Shown: piece after piece, positions 8,532 to 59,246 of the stretch | How positions within the stretch are numbered: the first letter of the stretch is position 1 | Layout of the letters: every line of letters starts with the position of its first letter | Assembly (NCBI GenBank): GCA_902635945.1 | Contig: CACPPU010000001.1 | Location: 364,955 to 428,954 of the forward strand | Direction: 5' to 3' | DNA: 64,000 bases | DNA from: an uncultured Candidatus Actinomarina sp. | GTDB lineage: Bacteria > Actinomycetota > Acidimicrobiia > Actinomarinales > Actinomarinaceae | Notes under the pieces: generated by a model | What the model saw: only the letters and a program-made list of their open reading frames with translations | Told to the model about the DNA's origin: nothing | Databases searched by the model: none | Made by a program: the position numbers and the translations under genes

Positions 8532-8540
8532 AATTTAAGT

Positions 8541-12462: not shown

Positions 12463-12468
12463 AAGCCT

Positions 12469-13242: not shown

Positions 13243-13251
13243 TATATAATT

Positions 13252-43480: not shown

Positions 43481-44200
43481 ATGAAAGAAAAGATACAAAT
43501 TGTAACACCTGTTTACAATGAAGAAAAAAATATATACTCAACAATAAAAAGTTTCTTTATTGAATATGAAAACAGTGATTTTGAAATTTCATTCATAATC
43601 TCAGAAGATGGTTCAACGGACAATTCAATAAAAATTATCAAGGAACTGCAGAAAGATTATGAAATAAAACTTCTTAGTAGTCGAGAAAGAAAAAATTATA
43701 CAGATGCTGTGTTAATTGGTTTAAGAAGTACTAGTTCAGAAATAGTTTCGTTTGTTGATTCTGATGGTCAATATGATGCAAAAGACTTAAAAAGATTATT
43801 TAATGAACTAAAACCTGGAAGGGTTGTTATTGGTTATCGACACCCTAGAGTTGATAACATTTTTCGACTATTGATTTCTGGATCATTTAAAAAATTATAC
43901 GAAATTTTATTAAAAATTAAACTAAACGACCCTTCTTGTGGTTACTTTATGGCTTATAGAGAGGATATACAGGCGATTATAAATAAAGAGGGAATTGGTT
44001 TAATCAAAGAAGGATTCTGGTGGGAATTTTATGCATGGTGCTTCAAAAGAAACCTGGAAATAGTTGAAATACCAATAAAACACTTTAATAGAAAATATGA
44101 CAACACCGTAGTCTTTAAAGCAAGTAAAATTCCTGGAATAGCTATTAGAAATATAAGAGGTTTACTAAAATTAAAAAAAGTTTTAAATAGTAATTTTTAA
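43481..44200 (+). CDS. GT2, GtrB/ArnC/Dpm1-like polyprenyl-phosphate sugar synthase
   Basis: QIVTPVYNEEKNI, ISEDGSTDNS, FVDSDGQYD and the following GYRHPRVDN region are present. Confidence 0.65.
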   Translation: MKEKIQIVTPVYNEEKNIYSTIKSFFIEYENSDFEISFIISEDGSTDNSIKIIKELQKDYEIKLLSSRERKNYTDAVLIGLRSTSSEIVSFVDSDGQYDAKDLKRLFNELKPGRVVIGYRHPRVDNIFRLLISGSFKKLYEILLKIKLNDPSCGYFMAYREDIQAIINKEGIGLIKEGFWWEFYAWCFKRNLEIVEIPIKHFNRKYDNTVVFKASKIPGIAIRNIRGLLKLKKVLNSNF

Positions 44201-44772
44201 ATCGACACTTCACTCTTGTCTACCATTACCGCGTCAAATACAATTTCATATTTTGCAAACTTTTCAATATAGTAATTCATTTTATTTTCAAAACCCCATC
44301 TGGAAGGAGAAACTAGACATAGTTGAAAATTTCGAAGAATATCAGCACTTTCAGAATCTAAATCAAAATCTTTATAAGTATCCACCCAAACCCATTTAAC
44401 TTTGTCAGTAAAACTTGGAAGATTATAAACACTTTCAAATTTAGAAAACCTTAAACTTAGATAGTTGCCAAAATGTTCATGATTTTGAAGAAGGTATGGA
44501 AATTCAATATCAAGTAAAAAAAAATTTGAGATAGATTTTTTTTTGAGGCTATTTAATACTTGTTGCTCTACACCGGCTTCTTTAATGTTAACTACAAGTA
44601 ATTTATGTTGGAAATGCTTTATAAATTCATCAAATTTATCTTTATATATTCCAAAATCATGACCAAGAACAAGTTGTCCTTCATTTCCCCTAACATCAAT
44701 TTCTACACCATATTCAATGGGTATATCCTTTAATGCCTCAATAGTATTTACTCTATGAATTATCTTTATCAT
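44197..44772 (-). CDS. Glycerophosphodiester phosphodiesterase (GDPD / PI-PLC-like) domain protein
   Basis: 191 aa. The block IIHRVNTIEALKDIPIEYGVEIDVRGNEGQLVLGHD fits the HR..N...E.DV....HD GDPD signature. Confidence 0.5.
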   Translation of the reverse strand: MIKIIHRVNTIEALKDIPIEYGVEIDVRGNEGQLVLGHDFGIYKDKFDEFIKHFQHKLLVVNIKEAGVEQQVLNSLKKKSISNFFLLDIEFPYLLQNHEHFGNYLSLRFSKFESVYNLPSFTDKVKWVWVDTYKDFDLDSESADILRNFQLCLVSPSRWGFENKMNYYIEKFAKYEIVFDAVMVDKSEVSI

Positions 44773-44786
44773 GATAGAATATTTTA

Positions 44787-46325
44787 GTGAATGTTAGTAA
44801 TAAAAACTTAGCTAAATTTACAAATTCGATATTTCAATATTTATCAATAGGTTTATTGATTTTTTACTTTGTTAATAATATAAAAAATAATATTTATGAG
44901 GTTTTATTTATTGACGAAAGAATGCTCATTGATGATATATATAATGTTTGGCTTATTGAAGACTTGTATAATAGATTCTCAAATATTTCAAATCAATCAC
45001 TAAAAAATATATTAATTGTTTTTATAGAGCTAGCTTATGGTGGAGATTTAAGATATGGAAGACTTTGGTCTAATTTTTTCACAATATTAGTAGGTCCAAC
45101 AACTTTTTTAAGTGACACTGTAGTTATACTATTTTCACGATTTATAAATTCTTTACTATTTTTTTCAGGAGCTTACTTACTCTCAAAGTATTTAGTTGAA
45201 AAAAAATACATGTGGTTAAGTGTTTTTACTATTTACTCATTTGCATCTGTAGAATTTATACACAGAGTTCCAAAACCTGACCCAATGGTAGTAATATTCG
45301 TTGCTCTAGGTATTAAATATTTAACAAATAAAAAGTATTATCACTCAATTTTTTTTCTTGCTATTGCAAGTTTTTTAAAAATTAACGCAATAATAGCTTT
45401 CTTTTTTTTATGGATTTATATATTTCTTAAATCAAATGAAAATAAAATAAGTTTGATATTTAAAACTTCTTTAATAACTTTAGGGTCTTTGTTTATTGTT
45501 AATCCAATACTATTAATACCACCTCTGAGTTTGGGAGGAAATCAAATACCAAATTTTTATAAGATATATTTTAATTGGTTAACCACGCAAGGCTCCAACT
45601 CAGACGAAGTATTTTTTAGCTTTAATTTTTTTATGAACTGGATTGAGGAATTATCTTTATTTTATAAATTTCCAAACAAACTTCTTTTCTTGATCATAAT
45701 TGTTATTCTTCTAGGCTTAGCTTTTAAAGAAATTATTAGCTCCTCTGATGGTTTATCCAAATATTTACTTTTAATATTTTGTTTTTATATATTCTTTTAC
45801 TTCTTTTTTATTGAAAGAGCATGGACGCATTATTTGCACTTACCTTTTTCTTTATTATTAATTGCATTCCTAAGGGTCTTTAAAAAAAGGAAAAATTCTT
45901 TAATACCTACTATCTTAATTATCCTACTTGCGTCAATAGGAAATATTTCAAATATGGATAGATTTTTAAATGATAAAACTTTCAATATGAATGATAGGCT
46001 AAATTATGTATCTGTTGAAACACAAAACGATGCACAAAAAATTATTGATATAATCATCAATGAAATAAAGTCGATCTATAAAGAAAATGAACATTTAAAT
46101 AAAAATTTAGTTTATTGGCACCCAGACTTAATAACCCCAAGAAATAAAGTGACCTATAATGAAAGTTTTTATGTCCGTGAATATTGGGGAGATAAAAATA
46201 AGGTTAACACTGCAATTGAAGAGGCCGATATCTTTGTAACTTATACTGATTACGAAGTATCAGATTTTATAGTTAAAAAAAATATTGAAAACTTTTATAT
46301 TTATTACTTTAAGAAGGTAAATTAA
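44787..46325 (+). CDS. Large polytopic membrane protein, GT-C-like candidate
   Basis: 512 aa with about 11 TM segments. It has an early acidic loop (FIDERMLIDDIYN) and a C-terminal soluble domain. Confidence 0.4.
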   Translation: MNVSNKNLAKFTNSIFQYLSIGLLIFYFVNNIKNNIYEVLFIDERMLIDDIYNVWLIEDLYNRFSNISNQSLKNILIVFIELAYGGDLRYGRLWSNFFTILVGPTTFLSDTVVILFSRFINSLLFFSGAYLLSKYLVEKKYMWLSVFTIYSFASVEFIHRVPKPDPMVVIFVALGIKYLTNKKYYHSIFFLAIASFLKINAIIAFFFLWIYIFLKSNENKISLIFKTSLITLGSLFIVNPILLIPPLSLGGNQIPNFYKIYFNWLTTQGSNSDEVFFSFNFFMNWIEELSLFYKFPNKLLFLIIIVILLGLAFKEIISSSDGLSKYLLLIFCFYIFFYFFFIERAWTHYLHLPFSLLLIAFLRVFKKRKNSLIPTILIILLASIGNISNMDRFLNDKTFNMNDRLNYVSVETQNDAQKIIDIIINEIKSIYKENEHLNKNLVYWHPDLITPRNKVTYNESFYVREYWGDKNKVNTAIEEADIFVTYTDYEVSDFIVKKNIENFYIYYFKKVN

Positions 46326-46356: not shown

Positions 46357-47718
46357 ATGAAAAATAATAAATTAATTTCTTCTTTAAATTCCAAAAATGG
46401 ATTCAATTTTTTTTTCTTTCTTTACTTCCCTCTTTTATTTTTTTTTGTTTATAAAACTTCTAAAACCCTGCCTCCTTTTCGTGATGAGATAGTTTCACTA
46501 ACTGCTAACGTAGGTTTCTTTTTAAATGGTTTAAATTTTGAAGGTCCTGTAGATACAATTTTTGAAGGTCTTTATAATCCTTATTTAACTTCTCCCCCTT
46601 TATCAGCCGTTGGAAGTTCCCTGGCTTGGATGTTTACTGACAATTTTGACATCCTACGCATTTCAAATTTTGTATGGGTACTTACAGTTCAGTTAATTTT
46701 TTCATCATATATTTCTAAAATATATGATTTGGAGTATAAAAAACTAATAGTTTTTTCAAGCTTTACTTTAGTTGCTTTTCCATTTTGGTTTGGTTCACTA
46801 TATTCTTTGGGAGAAACTATTAGCATTATTATATTTTTTAATTCCCTTCTTTTATATAAAACTTATCCAAAAATTAGTGTTTTCTTAATGGGATTAATAG
46901 TATTTTTTGGTAAAGGTATTTTAGCTGTACTTTTTATATTTTTTTATATTCTTAATCTATTAGTCAATAAAGAAATTAAAAAAACTCCTGTAGAGCTACT
47001 AATATTCTTGATTCCATCAGCAATCTGGTTGTGTTTAATAATTTTTAAATCTGATTACAAAAATATTTTCGAATACATGGATCACTTCATAATTATGTAT
47101 AAAAGTATGGATAGCCAGATAGGTAATTTAGGAATTCTAGGGATTTTTAATCTTCGAAACATTGTTCAAAATTTTCAAAACTCGGGTGTTTTGAGTTGGA
47201 ACACTAGTGTTATTTTAAGAGTGTTTCTACCTCCTATTTTGTTATTTTTAGTTTTACTTCTTAAAAAAGGTAGAAATATGATGCTTGATACTAGCCAACT
47301 AGTTTATTTTGTTGGAGCATTAGCGCCATTGTATGGCTGGTTTATCTTAGTATCGCCTGAAAAACCTATAATTTACGCTACTCATTTTACGTTTCCTTTG
47401 TTGATGTTTTCTTTTTATTTATTATCAAGAAAAAATTTAGAAATAGAATTAATAAACAATTCTGCTTTCTTTATTTGCTGTCTATATATGACTTCCAATG
47501 TGTTATTTATACTTTCTATAATATTTTTAATTTTAATAAATATTAGTAAAAAATTTAATTACTCTGCTGTAATCATTTTAATTTTCTTAAGCTTGCTTAA
47601 TTCAACATATGAAGTTCAACAAGAAAAAGCTTACTCAGTGAATTTAAACGAATGTAAAAAAAATATATCCTCTAATGAATGTTTCGAATATTTAATGAAT
47701 GTAAAGGAAAATAATTAA
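46357..47718 (+). CDS. Large polytopic membrane protein, GT-C-like candidate
   Basis: 453 aa with about 12 TM segments. It has an early loop FRDEIVSLTANVGFF. Confidence 0.4.
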   Translation: MKNNKLISSLNSKNGFNFFFFLYFPLLFFFVYKTSKTLPPFRDEIVSLTANVGFFLNGLNFEGPVDTIFEGLYNPYLTSPPLSAVGSSLAWMFTDNFDILRISNFVWVLTVQLIFSSYISKIYDLEYKKLIVFSSFTLVAFPFWFGSLYSLGETISIIIFFNSLLLYKTYPKISVFLMGLIVFFGKGILAVLFIFFYILNLLVNKEIKKTPVELLIFLIPSAIWLCLIIFKSDYKNIFEYMDHFIIMYKSMDSQIGNLGILGIFNLRNIVQNFQNSGVLSWNTSVILRVFLPPILLFLVLLLKKGRNMMLDTSQLVYFVGALAPLYGWFILVSPEKPIIYATHFTFPLLMFSFYLLSRKNLEIELINNSAFFICCLYMTSNVLFILSIIFLILINISKKFNYSAVIILIFLSLLNSTYEVQQEKAYSVNLNECKKNISSNECFEYLMNVKENN

Positions 47719-47732
47719 ATTTATAAATTAAC

Positions 47733-48425
47733 TTAATTACCAGAATTAAATACGACATCCATAGAATTATTTAAATTACTATTAGTAATTTTTTCAGAAA
47801 CTACTGTGTCCGTGAGGTTGTTATCAATTAAATAACATTCAGCATTATATTGTTTTAACCAATAATGTAGGTCGTTCTCATAGCTATCACCAAATGCAAA
47901 TACTTTATAACCATTTTTAAAATATTTATCCACCGTTGGATTAACAAAATTAAAGAATTCCATGTTTGGTTTTTCAAACCCCGCTTCTTCAGAAGTAATT
48001 ATTTCATCAAAAATATCAATTCCCCACGCATTAATCTTTCTTAGTTGTATATCTAAATTTTGATTTGTAAATAGAATATAGACATTTTCTTTATTTTTTT
48101 CTATTTTTAATCTCTTAATTGCTTTTTCCTGCAATTTAGCATTTTTTATAAATTCCTTCCAGTATATATTTTCGATTTTAATGATTTCATTTAGACTTAA
48201 TTTTTTTGAAAACATTTTCTTAAAATATATTAATTTTGAATGTTTTGACGGACTCATAGGAATCTCATCTTGAGTTTTTAATTTTGATTTTTCATATGAA
48301 TTTTTAAATTCCTCAAAAGATTCAAAGACTTCTTGATATTCAAAGGATTTTTCCAGTCCAGTACTATGACTATGGTCGTATGAGTAGAAAGTATTATCCA
48401 AATCAAGAATTAGTAAACGTTTCAT
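47733..48425 (-). CDS. HAD-superfamily hydrolase/phosphatase
   Basis: Motif I is LILDLDNTFY (DxDxT), motif II-like is LFTNQN, and motif IV is FGDSYENDL. Confidence 0.7.
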   Translation of the reverse strand: MKRLLILDLDNTFYSYDHSHSTGLEKSFEYQEVFESFEEFKNSYEKSKLKTQDEIPMSPSKHSKLIYFKKMFSKKLSLNEIIKIENIYWKEFIKNAKLQEKAIKRLKIEKNKENVYILFTNQNLDIQLRKINAWGIDIFDEIITSEEAGFEKPNMEFFNFVNPTVDKYFKNGYKVFAFGDSYENDLHYWLKQYNAECYLIDNNLTDTVVSEKITNSNLNNSMDVVFNSGN

Positions 48426-50374
48426 AATTTATTTTCAAATTTTCTATTTAATAAAAATAAAACAATTGCTAATTTAAAAACCAGCTCTGCATCTTCATGA
48501 CTCGATAATTTACTAATATCAAATTTTTTACTTTTAAGATTATGGATATCCTGCGTAAAGGTATTAAAAAATTTTTCAGATTTATTTTTGTTGACATCTA
48601 ACTGAAAATTTATGTATTCTTCATGACTGTTTGGTTTTTGGATATTCATATCTTCAATTTGATTAATCAAAACCTTGAACTCATAAAAATATTGACTTTT
48701 CAAAAAAATATCAAAAGAAACTCTGTCCTTATCTCTTAATATTGTTTTAATATTTATATCTGAAGACATCTGTTGGGGAACTATATATTTTGAAAAATCA
48801 TCTCTCCTTTTTTTTATTTCTAAATTAATTTTTTGTTCAGATTTTTTTCTTTCTAAATCACGCTTTAATTTTGCCTCATCTTTGATTTTTTGTTCTACAT
48901 CTAAAAAAACATTTAAATCAAACCTTTTGTTTAGATCATTAAAATATAAGGAGTGTAGCCCTTCAATAATCAAAAAGTCTTTAATTCTTTTTTTATTTGT
49001 TGAATCAAATTTTCCAGTTAAATGATTGTAATTTTGTATTATTTGAGTTTCTCCATTAATCAAACTTAATATAGTTTTTTTAAATTCAAGTAAATTGTTC
49101 ATTTCTGGATTTAAATGTGTGCTTGTTTCCCAGGCAGGATCGTTTCTTTCATATTTGTGAAAGCTGTCTAATTCAACTTTATCAACAAATTTACTTCCAA
49201 AAAACTGTTCTAAAATATTCGAGAAAGTCGTTTTTCCTGTTGCTGAATCACCGGCAATAGAAATTATTATTGGTGATGATTTAATTTTGAAATATATATT
49301 CTTATCTAAAACTTGTATTGAATAGTAAAGAATAATTATGCTTGTTGTATAAATTAAAAAATCAAAAATACCCATATAAAATTCATTTATATATATAAAT
49401 TCATTTTCTTGATTTGAAACAACTAATAAAGAGAAGAGGGACATAATAAGTATTTTGACCTTATATTCAAATGAAAAGAATAGAACTAAAAATGCTGGAA
49501 ATGACCACAGTAACCACCCAATATTTGAGAGATTTGTAATATATATTGGAAAAGTCATAAAACCAGTAAATATGCAAACACCAATAAAATCTAATCTATG
49601 AATATTTTTCCAGTACATAAAAATGGTGAAGCTCAAAAATACTAATATAAATAAAAGACTGTTGCTTAAAATATTTGATGAATCGCTAACAACTAAAAAT
49701 CCTTTATTTATTCCATAAAAAATGGTTTCTCTATAATTTAAATCTATTAAAAATTGGAAGTTAAATAATACAGTCAAAAAAATGGTGTAGATCACAGTGT
49801 TTAAAACTTCACTTGATGTTTCGTCAAACTTAAGAAAATACAAAAGCACAATTGGAAGTAGTATTATAAATATAATTTTGGAACTAAATGATAATATCAA
49901 AAATATGATCGAATATTTTTTATTTTTTTCTTTTAAAAAGTATAAAGAAATCATAAAAAATGTGAGGGGTATAAAATCTAACTGACCCAAAATCCCAATT
50001 GAATAAATCAGAAGAGGATTAAGAATAAGTATTAAGTATAAATTTTTATCAGATATTTTAAATATTTCTTTTAATGTAAATATAAGTACTAATTCAAAAA
50101 CCAAATAACTTAAATTAACAAAAGAAACATTTAGTAAATTACCAGTGAAATAAAAAGGAAGTAAAACAAAATACATTAAATTACTGTATGGAAATGATAG
50201 ATAAGATTTATCTAAAAACTCAATGCCATCATATGGGTTTATACAACTAATAAAATCTTTGCATTGACTAAAGAAACTTGTATACCTGGCTACCTCCAAA
50301 TTCGGACTAAAATTCAATAAAATCAAATATTTAATCAACAATAAACTAATTAAAAAATATTTCTTATCTAGCAT
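48422..50374 (-). CDS. Fusion protein: N-terminal polytopic (GT-C/DUF2029-like) membrane domain plus C-terminal phosphoribulokinase/uridine-kinase-family P-loop kinase
   Basis: 650 aa. Residues about 1-365 are hydrophobic. The C-terminal part has the Walker A site IISIAGDSATGKTT, then LDSFHKYERND, LIIEGLH and IVPQQ, as in the PRK/UDK family (PF00485-like, by eye). Confidence 0.6.
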   Translation of the reverse strand: MLDKKYFLISLLLIKYLILLNFSPNLEVARYTSFFSQCKDFISCINPYDGIEFLDKSYLSFPYSNLMYFVLLPFYFTGNLLNVSFVNLSYLVFELVLIFTLKEIFKISDKNLYLILILNPLLIYSIGILGQLDFIPLTFFMISLYFLKEKNKKYSIIFLILSFSSKIIFIILLPIVLLYFLKFDETSSEVLNTVIYTIFLTVLFNFQFLIDLNYRETIFYGINKGFLVVSDSSNILSNSLLFILVFLSFTIFMYWKNIHRLDFIGVCIFTGFMTFPIYITNLSNIGWLLWSFPAFLVLFFSFEYKVKILIMSLFSLLVVSNQENEFIYINEFYMGIFDFLIYTTSIIILYYSIQVLDKNIYFKIKSSPIIISIAGDSATGKTTFSNILEQFFGSKFVDKVELDSFHKYERNDPAWETSTHLNPEMNNLLEFKKTILSLINGETQIIQNYNHLTGKFDSTNKKRIKDFLIIEGLHSLYFNDLNKRFDLNVFLDVEQKIKDEAKLKRDLERKKSEQKINLEIKKRRDDFSKYIVPQQMSSDINIKTILRDKDRVSFDIFLKSQYFYEFKVLINQIEDMNIQKPNSHEEYINFQLDVNKNKSEKFFNTFTQDIHNLKSKKFDISKLSSHEDAELVFKLAIVLFLLNRKFENKL

Positions 50375-51289
50375 GTGTATAAGTATTATAAATTAGCATT
50401 ACATACTATGGAAAGTTTTATTAATTATTCAAAAAAGGTTGGGAGTAACTTTCTTTTATGCCAAGGGCCTGGTGGAAATACAAGTATAAAAATAGAAAAA
50501 AAAGTATTAATTAAGAAATCCGGATATTTATTAAGTGATTCAAAAAATAAGAACATATTTAAAAAGGTAAATTTGAAAGATATAAATAGTTTTTATGAAA
50601 AAATAAATAATGAAAATAAATTTGATAAATCACTTTCTATAGAAACCCCCTTGCATATTTTGCTAAATTCAAAATATGTCTTTCACTATCACAGTATTGC
50701 TTCAATTTTAATTTCTGCAATTTACAAAAAAAATACCTTGGATCACGAATTATTAAAAAATAATATACTTCCGATAAGATATATAAGACCGGGAGTGAAA
50801 TTAGCAAACGAAATAAGAAAAATTAACAAAGATCATAATTTTAAATCTTTTTTTCTTTACAACCATGGAATTGTTATTGAAGATAACAATGTAGAAAGGC
50901 TTTACAAAAATATTTTAAATACTGAAAGTATTTTTTCAAAATTAATTGATTATAAGAAACTTAAAGTTACAGCAAGAGAAGTTTTAAATTTAGATATTGA
51001 AAATAATAAAGTTAGAAATATTTACCCAAATATAGAATATAAAAAATTTAAAGACAAATTTTTATTTCCTGATCACCCAGTATTTTTTCCTAATTCATTT
51101 AATTACGATGACAACTATATTTATTTAAACAAAAAATTGAATTCTGTAGAATCAATATACTTCAAAACCCTTCTTATCCTTTATGTTCTAATAGATAACA
51201 ATAAGATAGAAAATTATATAAAAAAAGAAACGGGTAGGGAACTTAGAAACTCAGAAGATGAACAATTGAGAATACAACTAAACAAATGA
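50375..51289 (+). CDS. Class II aldolase/adducin-N-terminal-domain-like protein (aldolase or sugar-phosphate epimerase)
   Basis: The blocks LCQGPGGNTSIK and KKSGYLL parallel the GGGNTS.K ... KGSG motifs of aldolase-domain proteins. The tracked GTG start abuts the divergent gene with zero spacing, so the ATG at 50408 (MESFINY) is the more likely start. Confidence 0.45.
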   Translation: MYKYYKLALHTMESFINYSKKVGSNFLLCQGPGGNTSIKIEKKVLIKKSGYLLSDSKNKNIFKKVNLKDINSFYEKINNENKFDKSLSIETPLHILLNSKYVFHYHSIASILISAIYKKNTLDHELLKNNILPIRYIRPGVKLANEIRKINKDHNFKSFFLYNHGIVIEDNNVERLYKNILNTESIFSKLIDYKKLKVTAREVLNLDIENNKVRNIYPNIEYKKFKDKFLFPDHPVFFPNSFNYDDNYIYLNKKLNSVESIYFKTLLILYVLIDNNKIENYIKKETGRELRNSEDEQLRIQLNK

Positions 51290-52782
51290 AAATTATTATA
51301 CCAATGACCGGAAGAAGTAAAAGATTTAAGGAAGCTGGTATTTCCTTACCTAAACAGTTTCTTCCAATTAACAACAAAACAATGATTGAACATACTTTGG
51401 ACATGTTCCCAGAAGAAAAAGATATAAACTTTATTGTTAGCAACGAAGATTATGACAACAGAGAATTCAAAAAATATTTCAAAATACTCTCAAAACACAA
51501 CATAGTAAAAATTGATTATCAAACTACAGGACCTGGAGGAGCTTTATTAGAGTCTAAATTGCTTGAAACTGAAGAATCTGTCCTAATAAACTATTGTGAT
51601 TTTGCAAATATCTGGGATTGGGAAAGTTTTAATAATTTTGCAAAACTAAATAATCCAGACGGTATTATTCCAGCTTATGTTGGGCTCCACCCTCATAGTA
51701 TATATGGTAACAACTATGCATTTCTCAAATTAGAAGAGGACAAAGTTACAGGCATACAAGAAAAAAATCCGTTCACTGAAGATAAGATGAATGAATATGC
51801 ATCATCTGGATCTTATTATTTTAAATCAGGTTTATCAGCAAAAAAATATATTGAGAAAAGCTTTGATAAGAAGCAATTTACTAATAATGAAATTTATATA
51901 AGTACACCATATCAGGAAATGATAAATGATAACTTAGATGTAAGAGTTTTTGAAATTGACCATTTCTTTCAATGGGGAACTCCAGAAGATTATACGGAAT
52001 TTATTTATGGTTTAGAAGAAGTAAAAAATATTGAATGTAAAAATAAAATTAATATCAATAACATAAATCTTTTAATACCTGCTGCAGGAGAAAGTAAGAG
52101 GTTTCGAGAAAAAAATTATAAAAAATCTAAAATTTATTTAGACATCAATGGTTCATCTATAATTACAAATATACTTAGCAGTATAAAAAGTGAATTTATA
52201 CCAAAAATATTAATACAAGAAAAAGATTTTTTAGAAAATGAGTTTAATTCATCTTCCTCTTCGATAGTAAGCATTCCTTTTAAAACAGAAGGTCAAGCTG
52301 ATAGTGCTCTTTTACTGATCGAACAAGTTGAAAATGACAAACCAATTTTAATTCATTCTTCTGACTGTATTTTAGACAAAAGAACGAAAATTCAAATTGA
52401 AGACAATGATGTAGTTGTATATACAAAAAGTGGTTATAGAAGAGCAGTAGAAAGCTACCGGCACTATGGATGGGTTAATTCAGAAGAGGGTGAAATTAAA
52501 AGCCTGTCGATTAAAACTAAACCTCAATCAAAAAATTCAAATGTCATTATTGGTACATTCCTTTTTAAAAATAAGGAAATATTTAAGGAGCTTTACAGCA
52601 GAACTAAGGAAGAAATACAAAAAGGTGAAATTCATATAGATCATCTTGTAAAAACTGCTTTAGAGGTTGGGTATGTAGTGAAAGAGGTGTCTTCTGATAA
52701 ATCAGTAATGCTAGGTGTACCCGTTGAGTATGAATTATTTAAATATATGCAACATGTCTATTACTATTTAAGAAATAAATGA
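51286..52782 (+). CDS. Tandem double nucleotidyltransferase-domain protein (sugar-phosphate nucleotidylyltransferase-like)
   Basis: 498 aa. There are two N-terminal-type NTP-transferase signatures: IIIPMTGRSKRFKEAGISLPKQFLPI and LLIPAAGESKRFREKNYKKSKIYLDI. Confidence 0.6.
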   Translation: MKIIIPMTGRSKRFKEAGISLPKQFLPINNKTMIEHTLDMFPEEKDINFIVSNEDYDNREFKKYFKILSKHNIVKIDYQTTGPGGALLESKLLETEESVLINYCDFANIWDWESFNNFAKLNNPDGIIPAYVGLHPHSIYGNNYAFLKLEEDKVTGIQEKNPFTEDKMNEYASSGSYYFKSGLSAKKYIEKSFDKKQFTNNEIYISTPYQEMINDNLDVRVFEIDHFFQWGTPEDYTEFIYGLEEVKNIECKNKININNINLLIPAAGESKRFREKNYKKSKIYLDINGSSIITNILSSIKSEFIPKILIQEKDFLENEFNSSSSSIVSIPFKTEGQADSALLLIEQVENDKPILIHSSDCILDKRTKIQIEDNDVVVYTKSGYRRAVESYRHYGWVNSEEGEIKSLSIKTKPQSKNSNVIIGTFLFKNKEIFKELYSRTKEEIQKGEIHIDHLVKTALEVGYVVKEVSSDKSVMLGVPVEYELFKYMQHVYYYLRNK

Positions 52783-53477
52783 ATTTATTGACAATAGTAA
52801 TTCCTTGTTTTAACGAAAAGGAATCTTTGCCTTTTTTAATTGAAAAATTGAATCAAGTAAGTGAAAAAATTAACTTCATCATTGTAGATAATGGATCTAC
52901 TGATGGTTCAAAAAAATACTTAGAGAGTACAAAAATAACCAAAAAAAATATAAGTCTTTATTTTATTGAAAAGAATAAAGGCTATGGTGCGGGTATTTTT
53001 AAAGCTCTAAATTTGATAGAAGATTCCAAATATATTGGGTGGATCCATGGTGACCTCCAATTTGATTTTGATAAATTAGAAAATACAGTTGAATTTTTTG
53101 AAAAAGCAAATAATAAAGACCTCATCTTTTACAAGGGTGTTCGGATAGGTAGAAATAAAATAGACAGATTTTTTTCGTACTTTATGGGCATATTTGGAAG
53201 CTTGGTAATGAATTACAATTTTTACGAAATCAATGCCCAGCCAACTATTTTCAATAAAGTCTTAATTGAAAATGCGAAAAATGTACCAAATGACTTCAGG
53301 TTTGATACATATATATACTGGCTTGCGTTGAAAAATAATTACACAATCTCAAGAGAAAAGTTTGAATTTCCTCAAAGAAAATTTGGAAATTCAAATTGGG
53401 ATTATGGGATAGGATCAAAATTAAAATTTTCATATATTTTATTTAAATATTTTTTTAAATTAAGAAAAACTATTTAA
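52779..53477 (+). CDS. GT2, Dpm1/GtrB-like polyprenyl-phosphate sugar synthase
   Basis: LTIVIPCFNEKESLPFL, IIVDNGSTDGS, NKGYGAGI and IHGDLQFD are present. Confidence 0.65.
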   Translation: MNLLTIVIPCFNEKESLPFLIEKLNQVSEKINFIIVDNGSTDGSKKYLESTKITKKNISLYFIEKNKGYGAGIFKALNLIEDSKYIGWIHGDLQFDFDKLENTVEFFEKANNKDLIFYKGVRIGRNKIDRFFSYFMGIFGSLVMNYNFYEINAQPTIFNKVLIENAKNVPNDFRFDTYIYWLALKNNYTISREKFEFPQRKFGNSNWDYGIGSKLKFSYILFKYFFKLRKTI

Positions 53478-55108
53478 TTATCTAAGTTAACGATTTTAAA
53501 ATATTTTGATTTCGTAATAGTGAAGTTATCTCGATTGGGGGAACATTCAATATTCGCCCAGCACTGATCTCCATCTTTAGGAAAAGATCTATCATATAAT
53601 TTAGATACTTCTGGTTCTGGAATTGTATAGTTTGGATGATTAAAGAAATCAAAATTTCTGTAACTATCTAATCTTACAAAAGAGACAACAGCAATAATAA
53701 ACAAGAATTGTAAAAATTGTTTTGAAAAATTTACTCTGGGAAATCTGTTAAAACCTATTAATGCAATTAATAATATTTGAATTGCCATTATGTATCTTGG
53801 GTCTGGACCAAAATTCAAATAAAATAAAATATTTAAAAACAATATAGTTCTTATTGGAAAATTTTTATTTCTTACTTTGGAGTTATTAATAGTTGTTTTT
53901 GAAAATACTACAAAAGCAATTATTAAATATGATATTGTATAGTTTAATAAAATTGTAAAGTTCATATTGATTTCTATGTAATCTTTAAACCAATTTACAA
54001 GTGAGTCGCCGAAATTATAGGAATTACTATAACCTATTGATATGTCTTGTATAACTTTTATATTTTGTTCATTGGACCAACTAAATTGATCAAAACAAGA
54101 AGCAGCTAAAGGGAATATTAAGCATCCAGTGTTGAGTAATGACTTTAATAACCAAAATATGCCGATAGTTGAAAACAATAAGAAATCTGAGAATTTAATT
54201 TTCTGAAGTTTATCTTCTTTTATTAGGTGAACCACGTAAAAAATATAAAAGCTAAATATCATAACACCGCTTACTTTCAGTTGATAAATAAAAAGAGACA
54301 AATAAGATACAATTAAAAAATTAAACGAATCAAATTTTTTATTTTTTACATTGTAAATAATTAATACTGCTGTAATTACAAATAAAACTGCAACTGCAAC
54401 ATCTTGCTTACCAATTCCTTGAATATAAATAAGTCCATTTCTTCCTCCTGAATAACCAAAGTTATCAAAAATTGAAAAAATAAGGAGTGAGATTCCAATA
54501 TTTTTTAAATAATTAATTTCATTATTAAAAATTAAATCATAAATGATTTCAAAAAAGAATCCAATAAAAATAAGGCTTAGAAAATGAAGTAAAACATAAG
54601 ATCTATCTAGCCAAAGAAAACTTGAAATATATTCATATATAGATCCAACACCATAGGGACCATATATATTTGATATCCCTAGTATGATATTGTTCTCTCT
54701 TAATAACATCTGATTATTTAAATGATATAAACCGGCATCGTAATGAAAATAAACATTGGATGAAGAAATTAATAGAGTTATATATATTGGAAATTTTGCA
54801 ATAGTCTTTTTAAAAATATTAAAATTTAAAGGATATTTGATATTTATTAAAATAATCAGAAAAAATAGATATGTTAAATTGCTCTTTATAGGAAAAAAGA
54901 AATTAAAAAATACCAAGAAGTTACCAACAAAAATTAAACCAAATATAGGATAAATAATTTGCGAGTCGAGATTCAGAATTTTTTTGTTATCAATTTTTTT
55001 ATCTTTGTTAATAATTAAAACAAAAGACCTGCCAATCAGAAATAGTAAACAATAAAATATAAAAAACTTAACAGTTAAAAAAATAAATGTTTCAGTTAAG
55101 TTTTCCAT
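53474..55108 (-). CDS. Large polytopic membrane protein, unknown family; paralogue of 40135-41847
   Basis: 544 aa. See the shared blocks listed for 40135-41847. It converges on the Dpm1-like GT2 gene with a 4-nt overlap. Confidence 0.5.
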   Translation of the reverse strand: MENLTETFIFLTVKFFIFYCLLFLIGRSFVLIINKDKKIDNKKILNLDSQIIYPIFGLIFVGNFLVFFNFFFPIKSNLTYLFFLIILINIKYPLNFNIFKKTIAKFPIYITLLISSSNVYFHYDAGLYHLNNQMLLRENNIILGISNIYGPYGVGSIYEYISSFLWLDRSYVLLHFLSLIFIGFFFEIIYDLIFNNEINYLKNIGISLLIFSIFDNFGYSGGRNGLIYIQGIGKQDVAVAVLFVITAVLIIYNVKNKKFDSFNFLIVSYLSLFIYQLKVSGVMIFSFYIFYVVHLIKEDKLQKIKFSDFLLFSTIGIFWLLKSLLNTGCLIFPLAASCFDQFSWSNEQNIKVIQDISIGYSNSYNFGDSLVNWFKDYIEINMNFTILLNYTISYLIIAFVVFSKTTINNSKVRNKNFPIRTILFLNILFYLNFGPDPRYIMAIQILLIALIGFNRFPRVNFSKQFLQFLFIIAVVSFVRLDSYRNFDFFNHPNYTIPEPEVSKLYDRSFPKDGDQCWANIECSPNRDNFTITKSKYFKIVNLDN

Positions 55109-55188: not shown

Positions 55189-55575
55189 ATGATTAAAAAT
55201 TTTCTTCGACTATTTCTCTTATTTATCTTAAATTACTCAGTTTTGTTTTTTAGCAACAATGCAAATGTTTATCAATTATTTCTAGATTTAAATAAAGTAA
55301 ACTTAATTTCTAGTTTTAATGAAATAACAATTTATGCTGTAATTTCTACTTCAGTACCTCTTTTAACATTGTTTTTAATATATTTTTTTAGACCTTTTAT
55401 TGAAATTTATCTTTTACATTTTCTGAAATTTAATTTTTATTTTTTGATAAATTTACTTTCGATTTCAACCATATATATTGTGTTGAGGATTTATGGCTAC
55501 GATAGGCTCAACCTGTTAATTTATTTAGTTCTTTCTTCTTTAATGCTTTATAAAACTGAGGGTTTAGGCAAATAA
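55189..55575 (+). CDS. Small 4-TM membrane protein
   Basis: 128 aa and hydrophobic. Its size and position would suit a GtrA-like flippase, but no GtrA motif was recognised. Confidence 0.3.
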   Translation: MIKNFLRLFLLFILNYSVLFFSNNANVYQLFLDLNKVNLISSFNEITIYAVISTSVPLLTLFLIYFFRPFIEIYLLHFLKFNFYFLINLLSISTIYIVLRIYGYDRLNLLIYLVLSSLMLYKTEGLGK

Positions 55576-59167: not shown

Positions 59168-59246
59168 AAATTCCTATTTTAAAAATAATTATTATATTCA
59201 TTAATTTAACATTTATATACTAGTTGTTAACAAAAGTATTTATGAA

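What the first reader, a model, noticed from the sequence alone, without database searches (positions are those of the whole stretch)
47733..52782. Membrane-domain/PRK-like kinase fusion embedded in a sugar-phosphate activation module
The protein at 48422-50374 joins a polytopic domain of about 365 aa (PYSNLMYFVLLPF-type loop, GT87/DUF2029-like by eye) to a complete phosphoribulokinase/uridine-kinase-family domain (GDSATGKTT, DSFHKYERND, IIEGLH, PQQ). I do not know of a described fusion of this kind. Three genes surround it: a HAD phosphatase (47733-48425, 4-nt overlap), a class II aldolase/epimerase-like protein, and a protein with two tandem nucleotidyltransferase domains. Kinase, aldolase-fold epimerase, nucleotidylyltransferase and phosphatase together form the logic of a pathway making an unusual NDP-activated pentose, pentulose or alditol-phosphate. 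The membrane fusion would channel this pathway to the membrane, or the kinase could phosphorylate a lipid-linked intermediate.
Basis: partly seen in the sequence, partly recalled or inferred. Interest (0 to 1): 0.6.

Follow-up and report, generated by a model that had tools for sequence, protein, structure and literature searches.

The report
Membrane glycosyltransferase fused to phosphoribulokinase
This marine actinobacterial gene really does encode one protein that joins a membrane sugar-transferase to a phosphoribulokinase-type enzyme, and it is the core of a widespread, horizontally moving and apparently unstudied gene cassette that most likely turns a pentose-phosphate-pathway sugar into a new decoration for the cell surface.

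Summary
The 650-aa ORF at 48422-50374(-) is one continuous gene. More than 100 homologues have the same length, and independent metagenome contigs cover it without indels.

- **C-terminal half.** Residues 366-650 are a complete plant/cyanobacterial/archaeal-type phosphoribulokinase with every catalytic and sugar-phosphate-binding residue invariant. The match to uridine kinase is much weaker.
- **N-terminal half.** Residues 1-365 have a GT-C glycosyltransferase fold. The only structural neighbours are PIG-M, ALG3, PimE/GT87, ALG9, ArnT and PIG-U.
- **Cassette.** The fusion is the fixed architecture of a large family (at least 620 clusters at 50% identity). That phosphatase's best model is the haloarchaeal RuBP 5-phosphatase. 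Outside the marine clade a GtrA flippase is usually present too.
- **Distribution.** The cassette occurs in at least eight phyla and on plasmids, including two E. coli plasmids. It is in only 2 of 25 genomes of the host genus (Ca. Actinomarina). The genome has no RuBisCO.

Best reading: a Gtr/Arn-like lipid-carrier glycosylation system with its own supply line from ribulose-5-P through RuBP and ribulose-1-P. The identity of the sugar is not established. I found no publication on it.

The parts
49280..50374 (-). GT-C-fold glycosyltransferase domain (aa 1-365) of the fusion protein. About 12 TM helices, N-terminus and C-terminus cytoplasmic. Family-wide invariant residues include F34, M67, P120, D133, P136, P174, G286, W287 and W290; FPY61-63 and K166 are nearly invariant.
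   Evidence: The AF2 model has pLDDT 82, pTM 0.86. The top Foldseek PDB hits are all GT-C: GPI-MT-I 9wno (TM 0.59), PIG-U, ALG3 9s6r (TM 0.61), PimE 9dm5, ALG9, ArnT, ALG6. 9 of 21 family members hit Pfam GT87 and 9 of 21 hit ALG3. The family profile hits GPI mannosyltransferase 1 at E 1.4e-6, with D133 aligned to Glu and K166 to Lys. K+R density is 0.217 per residue in proposed inside loops against 0.056 in outside loops over 21 sequences.
48422..49279 (-). Complete class II (plant/cyanobacterial/archaeal-type) phosphoribulokinase-like domain (aa 366-650) of the fusion protein, cytoplasmic. Coordinates include the stop codon.
   Evidence: Pfam PRK E 6.7e-29. NCBIfam cyanobacterial-type PRK E 4.5e-44 against uridine kinase 1e-14. 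phmmer against PDB gives Synechococcus PRK 7.8e-29 and uridine kinase 7e-7. Foldseek on the full model aligns about 300 columns to whole PRK chains (9qko TMt 0.75, 6hzk, 5b3f). Invariant residues are the P-loop G375-K381, D403, H406, R410, Y449, H451, G472-H474, K502, R505, D506 and R509.
47733..48425 (-). HAD-IA phosphatase, translationally coupled to the fusion gene (4-nt overlap). Probable pentulose-1,5-bisphosphate 5-phosphatase.
   Evidence: Pfam Hydrolase. The best NCBIfam model is NF053830, ribulose-1,5-bisphosphate 5-phosphatase (E 5e-23). It is also the top model for all 15 cassette HADs scanned (best 2.5e-54 against YjjG 1.7e-38). The DxD motif D8/D10 and K152, D180, D185 are invariant.
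50375..51289 (+). Class II aldolase/epimerase-superfamily protein with an intact metal site and a conserved C-terminal extension. It is divergent from the fusion gene with zero (or at most 33 nt) intergenic space.
   Evidence: Pfam Aldolase_II E 2.5e-13. All 15 cassette homologues match best the aldolase domain of bifunctional rhamnulose-1-P aldolase/SDR proteins; fewer match MtnB, FucA or the Ru1P aldolase. Invariant residues are G33 G34 N35 S37 K39, E90, H94, H104, H106, Y136 and H164.
51286..52050 (+). Nucleotidyltransferase domain A (aa 1-255) of the tandem protein.
   Evidence: NTP_transferase, NTP_transf_3 and IspD hits on this half alone. Archaeal GlmU N-domain E 6.5e-25. PDB 4evw NDP-sugar pyrophosphorylase 8.5e-11. 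It is a separate ORF in the Clostridium MAG and Acetobacter lovaniensis cassettes.
52051..52782 (+). Nucleotidyltransferase domain B (aa 256-498) of the tandem protein.
   Evidence: IspD and NTP_transf_3 hits on this half alone. RmlA-long, AglF and MocA models match at aa 263-472. It is a separate ORF in L021 and L025.
52779..53477 (+). Soluble GT2, probable polyprenyl-phosphate glycosyltransferase (GtrB/ArnC/DPM1-like). The family has H90-x-D92 in place of the usual DxD.
   Evidence: Pfam Glycos_transf_2 E 4.4e-20. The closest solved structures are ArnC (9hwj, 9bhc) and GtrB sll0501. It is the conserved cassette member next to GtrA in the E. coli and Azospirillum plasmid copies.
44197..44772 (-). 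191-aa compact PI-PLC/GDPD-superfamily phosphodiesterase-like protein. It is a conserved cassette member, displaced 3 kb from the rest in this window.
   Evidence: Orthologues lie immediately upstream of the fusion gene in most cassettes. hhalign of the family against a GDPD alignment gives probability 94.3%, E 1e-7, 176 columns. PGAP names the E. coli and Azospirillum orthologues 'phosphatidylinositol-specific phospholipase C/glycerophosphodiester phosphodiesterase family protein'. Invariant residues are H6, N9, E24, D26, R28, H38, K64, E113 and D131. No direct Pfam or PDB sequence hit.
43481..44200 (+). Second ArnC-like GT2, convergent with and overlapping the PI-PLC/GDPD-like gene by 4 nt. 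It belongs to the island and is not the cassette orthologue.
   Evidence: Pfam GT2 E 2.5e-21; NCBIfam ArnC model 5.2e-14. In other loci the cassette GT2 matches the 232-aa protein, not this one.

Best explanation
The gene encodes a bifunctional membrane enzyme that is the hub of a self-contained surface-glycan decoration cassette of the Gtr/Arn type, which uses a lipid carrier.

Proposed course of events in the cytoplasm:
- The PRK domain phosphorylates ribulose-5-phosphate, or a close pentulose-5-P, at O1 to give the 1,5-bisphosphate.
- The co-translated HAD phosphatase removes the 5-phosphate. The net effect is that the phosphate moves from C5 to C1 (ribulose-1-P).
- The class II aldolase-fold enzyme, whose relatives all act on ketose-1-phosphates, reshapes this sugar, most likely by epimerisation.
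- The two nucleotidyltransferase domains and the small PI-PLC/GDPD-like enzyme convert it into a nucleotide-activated donor.
- The GtrB/ArnC-like GT2 loads the sugar on polyprenyl phosphate.

After flipping (by GtrA where present), the GT-C domain of the fusion transfers the sugar to a cell-envelope glycan on the outer face. Fusing the first and last enzymes keeps the supply line at the membrane, in 1:1 stoichiometry with the transferase.

Shown here: the domain identities, intact active sites, the fixed fusion, the conserved cassette, its horizontal spread, absence of RuBisCO, and a topology compatible with a cytoplasmic kinase.

Inferred: all substrates, the order of the steps, the identity of the sugar and the acceptor.
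For: **Kinase**
- It is PRK-type over its whole length.
- The Asp/His catalytic dyad described for plant-type PRK (Asp57/His105 in CrPRK, PMC9978339) corresponds to invariant D403/H451.
- The counterparts of the Ru5P-binding His, Arg and Lys of Rhodobacter PRK (my knowledge of that literature) are invariant across 22 sequences.

**Phosphatase and aldolase-like protein**
- All 15 cassette HADs match the experimentally defined RuBP 5-phosphatase family best. In haloarchaea that enzyme forms an operon with a class II aldolase-family Ru1P aldolase (PMC9700705).
- The aldolase-like protein keeps the phosphate loop, the catalytic Glu and the His3 metal site. Its nearest models all use ketose-1-phosphates.

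**Lipid-carrier part**
- The GT2's nearest solved relatives are ArnC and GtrB.
- GtrA sits directly before the GT2 in the E. coli and Azospirillum plasmid copies and in most non-marine cassettes.
- The N-terminal domain has a GT-C fold, with D133 and K166 aligned to Glu and Lys of GPI mannosyltransferase I.

**Cassette and fusion**
- Seven components co-occur in about 20 loci from at least 8 phyla, in largely the same order with overlapping stops and starts.
- Stand-alone PRK homologues lack these neighbours.
- The fusion is fixed: the top 150 of 620 strong N-domain hits are nearly all 650-750 aa.

**Context**
- No RuBisCO and no other PF00485 protein in the genome.
- The gene lies in a 25%-GC island full of glycosyltransferases and sugar-modifying enzymes.
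- Positive-inside statistics place the kinase in the cytoplasm.
Against: - No biochemical data exist for any component, so the sugar is unknown.
- The PRK, HAD and aldolase-like proteins all score far below the curated equivalog cut-offs (150.9 against 236, 82 against 330, and about 50 against more than 560 bits). They are relatives of the named enzymes, not members of those families.
- If the aldolase-like protein were a true Ru1P aldolase it would destroy the pentulose instead of passing it on.
- A ketose-1-phosphate is not an anomeric phosphate. A GT2 donor therefore cannot be made from it by one ordinary nucleotidyl transfer. The need for two transferase domains and a phosphodiesterase is explained only by speculation.
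- The EL1 aspartate that is catalytic in several GT-C enzymes is Asn (N46) in the window's marine clade.
- A GT-C domain conserved across phyla with very different envelopes is unlike the highly variable GtrC proteins.
- No GtrA lies in the window. One GtrA-family gene lies about 107 kb away.
Confidence: 0.55

Rival explanations
1. Aldopentofuranose route, following the logic of the heptose-nucleotide pathway. The PRK-like domain is an anomeric (C1) kinase acting on an aldopentose-5-P, or RuBP is isomerised to an aldopentose-1,5-bisphosphate by the aldolase-fold enzyme. The HAD removes the 5-phosphate, and one nucleotidyltransferase makes an NDP-pentofuranose (ribo-, arabino- or xylo-furanose). 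GT2, GtrA and GT-C then act as in the main model. This would be a route to polyprenyl-P-pentofuranose that does not need PRPP.
For: The enzyme set (kinase, distal HAD phosphatase, nucleotidyltransferase) matches GmhA/HldE(HddA)/GmhB/HddC (established knowledge). The GT2 needs an anomeric NDP donor. GT-C enzymes that use polyprenyl-P-pentofuranose are well known in Actinobacteria (established knowledge).
Against: All PRK residues that position the keto-sugar and its phosphate are invariant. No class II aldolase-fold enzyme is known to interconvert ketose-1-P and aldose-1-P. The second nucleotidyltransferase and the PI-PLC/GDPD-like enzyme are left without a role.
Confidence: 0.15
2. The membrane domain is a non-catalytic lipid-binding module with a GT-C fold (like PIG-U). 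It presents a polyprenyl-phosphate-linked sugar to the kinase, which phosphorylates the lipid-linked intermediate. The HAD later removes this phosphate, by analogy with decaprenyl-P-5-phosphoribose in arabinan synthesis. The variable large polytopic proteins next to the cassette would then be the real acceptor-specific transferases.
For: PIG-U is among the best fold matches. The EL1 acid is not conserved in the marine clade. The fused GT-C domain is conserved across phyla, whereas adjacent polytopic proteins vary (785/795 aa in L008; 586 aa in the E. coli plasmid, L017 and L024; many in the window). In polyprenyl-P-pentofuranose the spacing between the phosphate and the primary OH equals that in Ru5P (inference).
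Against: GT-C donor sites face the outer leaflet while the kinase is cytoplasmic. D133 and K166 align with conserved Glu and Lys of an active GPI mannosyltransferase. A kinase followed by a phosphatase on the same position would be futile unless a step between them needs the phosphate, and no candidate for that step acts on lipids.
Confidence: 0.12
3. PRK, HAD and aldolase form a small catabolic or anaplerotic shunt (Ru5P -> RuBP -> Ru1P -> DHAP + glycolaldehyde) as in haloarchaea. This shunt is only loosely associated with a separate GT2/GT-C glycosylation module that uses a common NDP-hexose made by the nucleotidyltransferases.
For: The HAD plus class II aldolase pair carries out exactly this chemistry in haloarchaea (PMC9700705). 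Two of the 15 aldolase-like proteins weakly hit the Ru1P aldolase model.
Against: A shunt that burns ATP and yields two common metabolites has no reason to be fused to a GT-C domain. It also has no reason to be co-inherited with it across at least 8 phyla and on plasmids. The cassette sits in glycan islands. Common NDP-hexoses need no dedicated tandem transferase or PI-PLC/GDPD-like enzyme.
Confidence: 0.06
4. The C-terminal domain is a uridine/cytidine kinase, as PGAP and JGI annotate it. It would salvage nucleosides to feed NTPs to the adjacent nucleotidyltransferases.
For: Database names 'uridine kinase'. The family PF00485 contains both activities.
Against: PRK models and structures score far higher (E 4.5e-44 against 1e-14; 7.8e-29 against 7e-7) and align over the full 300-residue PRK chain, whereas uridine kinases cover about 180 residues. 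The motif is DSFHxxxR with the PRK-type His and Arg. The uridine kinase equivalog cut-offs are missed by a wide margin (45-55 bits against 180-220).
Confidence: 0.04

Closest known systems
Three-component lipid-carrier glycan modification systems: GtrA/GtrB/GtrC (O-antigen glucosylation) and ArnC/ArnT (lipid A aminoarabinose)
   Same: All three have a GT2 polyprenyl-phosphate glycosyltransferase whose closest solved relatives are ArnC and GtrB. A GtrA-family flippase gene lies directly upstream of the GT2 in most non-marine cassettes. A GT-C-fold membrane transferase is present. The system is mobile and patchily distributed.
   Different: Here the GT-C is fused to a complete PRK. The cassette carries its own five-domain sugar-activation line (aldolase-fold, two nucleotidyltransferases, PI-PLC/GDPD-like, HAD). 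The GT-C is conserved with the cassette, not acceptor-specific and hypervariable. The GT2 lacks C-terminal TM helices and has HxD in place of DxD. No GtrA lies in the marine-clade cassettes.
Plant/cyanobacterial/archaeal-type (class II) phosphoribulokinase, e.g. Synechococcus PRK 6hzk/6kev, Methanospirillum hungatei PRK 5b3f, 'cyanobacteria-specific PRK' 9qko
   Same: The fold matches over about 300 residues (TMt up to 0.75). The P-loop, the Asp/His catalytic dyad and the basic residues that bind the sugar phosphate are conserved.
   Different: It scores below the NCBIfam PRK cut-off (150.9 against 236 bits). It is tethered to 12 TM helices. The genome has no RuBisCO. It has no regulatory Cys pair in the P-loop (GDSATGKT against GDSGCGKS). 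Its context is glycan synthesis, not carbon fixation.
Non-carboxylating pentose bisphosphate pathway of haloarchaea (RuBP 5-phosphatase plus Ru1P aldolase; Sato et al. 2022, PMC9700705)
   Same: A HAD phosphatase of the same subfamily (best model for 15 of 15 cassette HADs) is paired with a class II aldolase-family protein. Both systems use RuBP without RuBisCO.
   Different: There RuBP comes from nucleosides via R15P isomerase and the end products are DHAP and glycolaldehyde (catabolic). Here RuBP would come from a PRK, and the context is anabolic (nucleotidyltransferases, GT2, GT-C). The aldolase-like protein is closer to rhamnulose-1-P aldolase domains than to the Ru1P aldolase.
GT-C glycosyltransferases of the PIG-M (GT50), ALG3 (GT58) and PimE (GT87) group
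   Same: The fold matches (TM 0.55-0.61). There are weak sequence matches to Pfam GT87 and ALG3 and to GPI mannosyltransferase I, including the 'NP...G..(D/E)' loop and a conserved Lys. All of these use polyprenyl/dolichyl-phosphate monosaccharide donors.
   Different: The window's own sequence gives no Pfam hit. The EL1 acidic residue is not invariant. A cytoplasmic kinase domain is attached. Donor and acceptor are unknown.
Nucleotide-heptose pathways (GmhA, HldE or HddA, GmhB, HddC)
   Same: The logic is the same: a sugar-omega-phosphate is phosphorylated at position 1, a HAD phosphatase removes the distal phosphate, and a nucleotidyltransferase activates the product. HldE is a precedent for fusing the kinase to another pathway enzyme (established knowledge).
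   Different: The kinase family differs (PRK/NMP-kinase fold against ribokinase or GHMP). The substrate is a pentulose, not a heptose. The cassette has an extra aldolase-fold enzyme, a second nucleotidyltransferase and a phosphodiesterase. The kinase is fused to the final transferase, not to the nucleotidyltransferase.

Membership tests
Phosphoribulokinase (PF00485 / class II PRK) | Pfam PRK domain above the gathering score | tested here: met
   101.5 bits against a cut-off of 22, aa 370-545. It is the only PF00485 match in the genome.
Phosphoribulokinase (PF00485 / class II PRK) | Full-length PRK fold including the C-terminal sheet and dimerisation part, not only the 180-200 aa NMP-kinase core | tested here: met
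   Foldseek aligns 299-355 columns to whole PRK chains (9qko TMt 0.75; 6hzk, 5b3f, 6h7g). Uridine kinases align over about 180 columns.
Phosphoribulokinase (PF00485 / class II PRK) | Catalytic Asp/His dyad and the basic residues that bind the Ru5P phosphate | tested here: met
   D403 and H451 correspond to Asp57 and His105 of CrPRK (PMC9978339; alignment). H406, R410, K502, R505, D506 and R509 are invariant in 17-22 sequences.
Phosphoribulokinase (PF00485 / class II PRK) | Score above the curated NCBIfam PRK cut-off (that is, a canonical Calvin-cycle PRK) | tested here: not met
   NF005655 scores 150.9 bits against a cut-off of 236, and only profile positions 5-186 of 326 match by sequence.
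Phosphoribulokinase (PF00485 / class II PRK) | Partner RuBisCO in the genome | tested here: not met
   No PF00016 match in the 76%-complete genome.
Phosphoribulokinase (PF00485 / class II PRK) | ATP-dependent phosphorylation of Ru5P to RuBP | not testable with these tools
   This needs an enzyme assay of aa 366-650.
Uridine/cytidine kinase (as annotated in databases) | Score above the udk equivalog cut-off | tested here: not met
   TIGR00235 scores 45.5 against 220.3; NF004018 scores 54.5 against 180.
GT-C glycosyltransferases (GT87/GT50/GT58-like) | GT-C fold: TM1, a long first outside loop with two short helices, and a conserved multi-TM core | tested here: met
   Every meaningful Foldseek hit is a GT-C protein, with probability 0.98-1.00 and TM 0.43-0.61. 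The model has pLDDT 82.
GT-C glycosyltransferases (GT87/GT50/GT58-like) | Sequence membership of Pfam GT87 (PF09594/DUF2029) | tested here: inconclusive
   The window's domain has no hit. 9 of 21 family members hit GT87 (best 2.6e-6), but as many hit ALG3, and some hit PMT_2, PIG-U or ALG6. This shows superfamily-level relatedness only.
GT-C glycosyltransferases (GT87/GT50/GT58-like) | Conserved acidic catalytic residue in the first outside loop | tested here: inconclusive
   The 'LDPW' Asp is conserved in most members but is Asn46 in the window's marine clade. The invariant acid is D133 in the second outside loop, aligned to a Glu of GPI-MT-I.
Gtr/Arn-type three-component glycosylation system | GT2 polyprenyl-phosphate glycosyltransferase | tested here: met
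   The GT2 at 52779-53477 has ArnC and GtrB as its closest solved relatives. It is conserved in the cassette. Its activity was not tested.
Gtr/Arn-type three-component glycosylation system | GtrA-family flippase in the unit | tested here: not met
   There is none in the window. One PF04138 gene lies elsewhere in the genome. GtrA is present in the E. coli and Azospirillum plasmid cassettes and in 10 metagenomic or genomic cassettes.
RuBP 5-phosphatase (NF053830, HAD-IA) | HAD catalytic motifs | tested here: met
   D8-x-D10, T120/S145, K152 and D180/D185 are invariant or nearly so.
RuBP 5-phosphatase (NF053830, HAD-IA) | Score above the equivalog cut-off | tested here: not met
   82 bits against 330 for the window's protein. 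NF053830 is nevertheless the best model for 15 of 15 cassette HADs (best E 2.5e-54).
Class II aldolase/epimerase superfamily (PF00596) | His3 metal site, catalytic Glu and phosphate-binding loop | tested here: met
   H104, H106, H164, E90 and G33-G34-N35-x-S37 are invariant in 15-17 sequences. Pfam gives 50.7 bits against a cut-off of 22.2.
PI-PLC/GDPD phosphodiesterase superfamily | Profile-level homology, the two catalytic His and the E-x-D metal motif | tested here: met
   hhalign gives 94.3% probability, E 1e-7 over 176 columns. H6, H38, E24 and D26 are invariant. PGAP gives orthologues the same family name. Direct Pfam PF03009 membership is not met.

The most novel reading that the evidence does not exclude
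The cassette may encode a previously unknown 'phosphate walk' that makes an anomeric nucleotide donor of a ketopentofuranose (ribulo- or xylulofuranose). The steps would be:
1. Ru5P is converted to RuBP by the PRK domain.
2. RuBP is converted to Ru1P by the HAD.
3. Ru1P is epimerised by the aldolase-fold enzyme (optional step).
4. Nucleotidyltransferase A makes NDP-1-pentulose, an analogue of CDP-ribitol or CDP-xylulose.
5. The PI-PLC/GDPD-like enzyme cyclises it to a pentulofuranose 1,2-cyclic phosphate, releasing NMP, and opens the ring to give the 2-phosphate.
6. Nucleotidyltransferase B makes NDP-2-pentulofuranose.
7. The GT2 makes the polyprenyl-P-pentulose.
8. The GT-C domain transfers the sugar to the glycan.

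This scheme uses every conserved domain exactly once. It would give RuBP a biosynthetic role outside carbon fixation, and it would explain how bacteria activate neutral ketoses for glycans.
Probability: 0.15. Interest if true: 0.85.

Novelty: new variant of a known kind. Interest (0 to 1): 0.68.

Why it matters
- **A new role for PRK and RuBP.** PRK and its product RuBP are textbook markers of CO2 fixation. Here a complete PRK appears in RuBisCO-free heterotrophs as part of cell-surface glycan synthesis. That would be a new biological role for RuBP. It is also a practical warning, because these genes are annotated 'phosphoribulokinase' or 'uridine kinase' and can mislead metabolic reconstructions of marine metagenomes.
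- **A candidate new sugar pathway.** The cassette is large, conserved, mobile and unstudied: at least 620 clusters at 50% identity, at least 8 phyla, and plasmids. It is a good candidate for a new sugar-nucleotide pathway and a new surface sugar.
- **An unusual architecture.** Fusing the first cytoplasmic enzyme to the last extracytoplasmic one is an uncommon solution for metabolic channelling at the membrane.
- **Ecological context.** In Ca. Actinomarina and SAR116 the cassette sits in the hypervariable glycosylation islands thought to govern phage and grazer recognition.
- **Testability.** The copy on a 33-kb E. coli plasmid makes the whole hypothesis directly testable in a laboratory strain.

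Tried and rejected
- **Frameshift or mis-joined genes.** Rejected. Homologues of equal length persist down to 21% identity, and independent contigs show no indels.
- **Calvin-cycle PRK.** Rejected. There is no RuBisCO, and the curated PRK cut-off is not met.
- **Uridine kinase.** Rejected as the best reading.
- **Direct Pfam, NCBIfam or PDB sequence hits for the window's membrane half and for the 191-aa protein.** None were found. Both were resolved only through family profiles and fold comparison.
- **Foldseek on the full-length model.** It returned only kinase hits. The second structure job was therefore spent on the N-domain alone, so the 191-aa protein could not be folded.
- **GtrA in the window.** Not found. 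The small membrane ORFs at 55189-55575 and 34367-34759 give no GtrA signal.
- **Phage-borne copies.** None were found. Only uridine-kinase-like partial hits appeared.
- **Stand-alone PRK homologues of Actinomycetota and methanogens (L030-L066).** They do not carry the cassette neighbours.
- **Literature searches.** Searches for the fusion, the cassette, NDP-pentuloses and pentulose-containing glycans found nothing relevant. The held library lacks many subscription papers, so absence is not proof.
- **An alditol-phosphate (CDP-ribitol-like) product.** Considered unlikely because no reductase is conserved in the cassette.

Full report
**Observation.**
- The HAD gene lies at 47733-48425(-).
- The 650-aa ORF lies at 48422-50374(-) and overlaps the HAD start by 4 nt.
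- A class II aldolase-like gene lies at 50375-51289(+).
- A 498-aa protein with two nucleotidyltransferase domains lies at 51286-52782(+).
- A GT2 follows at 52779-53477(+).

Pfam confirms PRK (aa 370-545, E 6.7e-29), HAD, Aldolase_II and NTP_transferase. The long ORF is not an artefact. Of 129 homologues in the 5.8-billion-protein collection, nearly all are 635-654 aa with both halves, and members at only 21-25% identity (P0119, P0120) still keep the fusion. An independent marine metagenome contig covers 48300-50500 with 11 substitutions and no gap. Contigs of three further runs cross the domain boundary without indels.

**Host and setting.** A B12-dependent ribonucleotide reductase in the same window is 88-91% identical to proteins named Candidatus Actinomarina sp. 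or Acidimicrobiia bacterium. The genome is about 1.05 Mb. From about 30 kb to the end of the window the G+C content falls from 35-40% to about 25%. The genes in this stretch are DegT aminotransferases, GT2, GT8, GT10, GT25 and GT1 transferases, GDP-mannose dehydratase, a methyltransferase and eight large polytopic proteins without Pfam matches. This is a flexible glycosylation island. The fusion gene occurs in only 2 of 25 genomes of the genus.

**The kinase half.**
- NCBIfam's cyanobacterial-type PRK model is by far the best hit (E 4.5e-44, against uridine kinase at 1e-14), though it is below the curated cut-off.
- Against PDB sequences, Synechococcus PRK scores 7.8e-29 and uridine kinases 7e-7 or worse.
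- The AlphaFold model of the whole protein (pLDDT 86.8, pTM 0.80) superposes on entire PRK chains over about 300 columns (9qko TMt 0.75; 6hzk; archaeal 5b3f). Uridine kinases cover only the 180-residue core.
- The catalytic Asp/His dyad described for plant-type PRK (Asp57/His105 of CrPRK; PMC9978339) corresponds to D403 and H451.
- These two residues, the P-loop, H406, R410, K502, R505, D506 and R509 are invariant across the family. By my knowledge of the Rhodobacter PRK literature, the last six are the counterparts of H45, R49, K165, R168, D169 and R173, which bind Ru5P and its phosphate.
- The genome has no RuBisCO and no other PF00485 protein.

The domain therefore looks like an active PRK-type sugar-phosphate kinase that does not serve the Calvin cycle.

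**The membrane half.** The window's own sequence hits nothing in Pfam or NCBIfam.
- I aligned 21 N-terminal domains taken from diverse loci (A3) and modelled the domain alone (pLDDT 82, pTM 0.86).
- All meaningful Foldseek matches are GT-C proteins: GPI mannosyltransferase I (9wno), PIG-U, ALG3 (TM 0.61), PimE/GT87, ALG9, ArnT and ALG6, with probabilities 0.98-1.00. The remaining hits are noise.
- At sequence level, 9 of 21 members hit Pfam GT87 and 9 hit ALG3.
- The family profile hits GPI mannosyltransferase 1 at E 1.4e-6. The invariant D133 ('GQLD') aligns to a Glu and the nearly invariant K166 to a Lys.
- A 12-TM topology with both termini inside fits the GT-C architecture. It is supported by positive-inside statistics over 21 sequences: K+R is 0.217 per residue in inside loops and 0.056 in outside loops.

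The kinase is therefore cytoplasmic, and the conserved loop residues (FPY61-63, D133, K166, G286-W287-x-x-W290) face outward. One caveat remains. The Asp of the 'LDPW' motif in the first outside loop, which is conserved elsewhere, is Asn46 in the window's marine clade.

**The cassette.** Gene neighbourhoods were taken from distant homologues, from 17 genomes found by pattern search, and from two plasmids.
- They share one unit. Its commonest order is: class II aldolase-like, tandem nucleotidyltransferase, (GtrA), GT2, a protein of about 195 aa, GT-C::PRK, HAD. Genes often have overlapping stops and starts.
- The window has the 195-aa component too, at 44197-44772(-).
- Carriers include a Puniceispirillum (SAR116) MAG, Bryobacteraceae, Burkholderiales, Montanilutibacter psychrotolerans, a Clostridium MAG, Obscuribacterales, Herbiconiux, Acetobacter lovaniensis DSM 4491, Belnapia arida, Eisenbacteria and FCPU426.
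- It also lies on Azospirillum brasilense plasmid p5 (inside an O-antigen-type cluster), a Hirschia baltica plasmid and a 33-kb IncR E. coli plasmid next to IS26. In E. coli it occurs in 2 of 5426 complete genomes, both times on plasmids.
- The gene tree cuts across phyla. For example, the Actinomarina copies group with the SAR116 copy at 100/100 support, and Acidobacteriota group with Eisenbacteria. Horizontal transfer is therefore frequent.
- A profile of the N-domain finds 620 cluster representatives at E <= 1e-30 among 1.84 billion proteins. The best 150 are almost all 650-750 aa, so the fusion is the fixed state of this GT-C family.
- Stand-alone PRK homologues from Actinomycetota and methanogens carry none of the neighbours.

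**The other enzymes.**
- *HAD.* It has intact motifs. For all 15 cassette copies scanned, the best NCBIfam model is the haloarchaeal ribulose-1,5-bisphosphate 5-phosphatase (best E 2.5e-54, next best YjjG 1.7e-38). That enzyme is strictly specific for RuBP, yields ribulose-1-P and is encoded in an operon with a class II aldolase-family Ru1P aldolase (PMC9700705).
- *Aldolase-like protein.* It keeps the phosphate loop, the catalytic Glu90 and the His104/His106/His164 metal site. Its nearest models (rhamnulose-1-P aldolase domains, then MtnB, FucA and the Ru1P aldolase) all act on ketose-1-phosphates.
- *Nucleotidyltransferases.* Both halves score on their own. They are separate genes in the Clostridium and Acetobacter cassettes, which suggests two distinct steps.
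- *The 191-aa protein.* It gives no direct hit. Its family profile aligns with GDPD proteins at 94.3% probability over 176 columns. It keeps two His, the E-x-D motif and a Lys. PGAP independently calls its orthologues PI-PLC/GDPD family proteins.
- *GT2.* Its closest solved relatives are ArnC and GtrB, and GtrA precedes it in at least 12 cassettes.

**Mechanism (inferred).** GtrA, a GtrB-like GT2 and a GT-C together are the signature of lipid-carrier glycan decoration: an NDP-sugar is loaded on polyprenyl phosphate, flipped, and transferred outside by a GT-C. The remaining enzymes would make the donor.
- The most economical start is Ru5P -> RuBP (PRK) -> Ru1P (HAD). This moves the phosphate from C5 to C1 and parallels the kinase/HAD/nucleotidyltransferase logic of heptose-nucleotide synthesis.
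- The aldolase-fold enzyme then acts on the ketose-1-phosphate. I favour epimerisation, because cleavage would destroy the sugar.
- How a ketose-1-phosphate becomes a glycosyl donor is open.
- One scheme uses every domain once. Nucleotidyl transfer to the 1-phosphate is followed by PI-PLC-type cyclisation to a 1,2-cyclic phosphate, opening to the anomeric 2-phosphate, and a second nucleotidyl transfer. This is speculative, and I give it about 15%.
- Fusing the first and last enzymes would hold the supply line at the membrane in fixed stoichiometry.

**Rivals.** In order of my estimate:
- an aldopentofuranose variant of the same scheme (0.15);
- a non-catalytic GT-C-like lipid holder that presents a lipid-linked sugar to the kinase, with the variable neighbouring polytopic proteins as the true transferases (0.12);
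- a haloarchaeal-type catabolic shunt merely parked next to glycosylation genes (0.06);
- a uridine kinase, as annotated (0.04).

The second rival draws support from the conservation of the fused GT-C across very different envelopes. It is also supported by co-travelling polytopic proteins, such as the 586-aa protein shared by the E. coli plasmid, L017 and Herbiconiux. Topology and the D133/K166 correspondence with an active mannosyltransferase argue against it.

**Comparison and novelty.** The system works like Gtr/Arn three-component systems and borrows chemistry known from PRK and from the haloarchaeal RuBP phosphatase/Ru1P aldolase pair. It is not a member of any curated family of those enzymes, because every equivalog cut-off is missed.
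- Seven full-text searches found no description of the fusion or the cassette. The held library is incomplete.
- Databases call the protein 'uridine kinase', 'phosphoribulokinase' or 'hypothetical'.
That note is not independent evidence, but I re-derived its claims here from this window.

I class the finding as a new variant of a known kind of system, with a possibly new sugar-activation pathway inside it.

**Limits.** All substrates and the sugar identity are inferred. The genome is 76% complete. The TM topology was derived by hand from the model's helices and charge statistics.

Noticed in passing
window 30000-64000: A low-GC (about 25%, against 35-40% upstream) flexible glycosylation island. 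It has eight large polytopic proteins with no Pfam family (30190-32022, 36437-38239, 40135-41847, 41840-43402, 44787-46325, 46357-47718, 55578-57278, and 53474-55108, which weakly matches the NCBIfam LIC_10190 membrane family). These are probably further GT-C-like transferases or polymerases.
   Followed up: partly
window 50374/50375: The fusion gene (minus strand) and the aldolase-like gene (plus strand) start back to back with zero intergenic bases as called. Even if the aldolase gene starts at its Met12 (50408), only 33 nt remain for two divergent promoters. The same tight divergent layout occurs in the other marine-clade loci (L011, L013, L002).
   Followed up: no
L079 (E. coli plasmid NZ_CP145712.1, 6022-14984 of the record): The complete cassette (NTP transferase, GtrA, GT2, PI-PLC/GDPD, 'uridine kinase' fusion, HAD, class II aldolase, 586-aa membrane protein) lies on a 33-kb IncR plasmid from human stool, next to IS26. 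An identical copy lies on a 32.6-kb plasmid of an E. coli strain from a bullfrog. It occurs in only 2 of 5426 complete E. coli genomes.
   Followed up: partly
L079:12676-14436, L017:4834-6615, L024:11641-13560: A 586-aa polytopic protein without a Pfam family follows the cassette in the E. coli plasmid, in a Pseudomonadota MAG and in an actinobacterial Herbiconiux MAG (E 1.7e-98). It is an accessory membrane protein that is co-transferred with the cassette across phyla.
   Followed up: partly
L021 (Clostridium MAG) 7080-8674; L025 (Acetobacter lovaniensis) 11722-13412: In these two cassettes the two nucleotidyltransferase domains are separate, overlapping genes. These are natural material for testing the halves individually.
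   Followed up: no
window 58136-60152: GDP-mannose 4,6-dehydratase lies next to a GT10 alpha-1,3-fucosyltransferase-like gene. This suggests fucosylated (or 6-deoxyhexose-bearing) surface glycans in this Actinomarina.
   Followed up: no
L011:12725-13738: In a marine-clade relative of the cassette, a neighbouring protein matches Pfam RXYLT1_C (ribitol-xylosyltransferase C-terminal domain) and, weakly, Exostosin GT47. This may be a hint about what the acceptor or the next sugar could be.
   Followed up: no
window 49280-50374 (aa 46) and alignment A3: The Asp of the 'LDPW' motif in the first outside loop, conserved in 17 non-marine family members, is Asn in the four marine-clade sequences (window, G008, Puniceispirillum MAG, L011). 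All other invariant residues are kept.
   Followed up: partly
L030-L066: Many Actinomycetota, Acidimicrobiales and Methanothrix/Archaeoglobus genomes encode stand-alone PRK homologues that match the fusion's kinase profile at about 1e-55, without any cassette neighbour. The fusion's kinase seems to derive from this archaeal/actinobacterial-type PRK group.
   Followed up: partly
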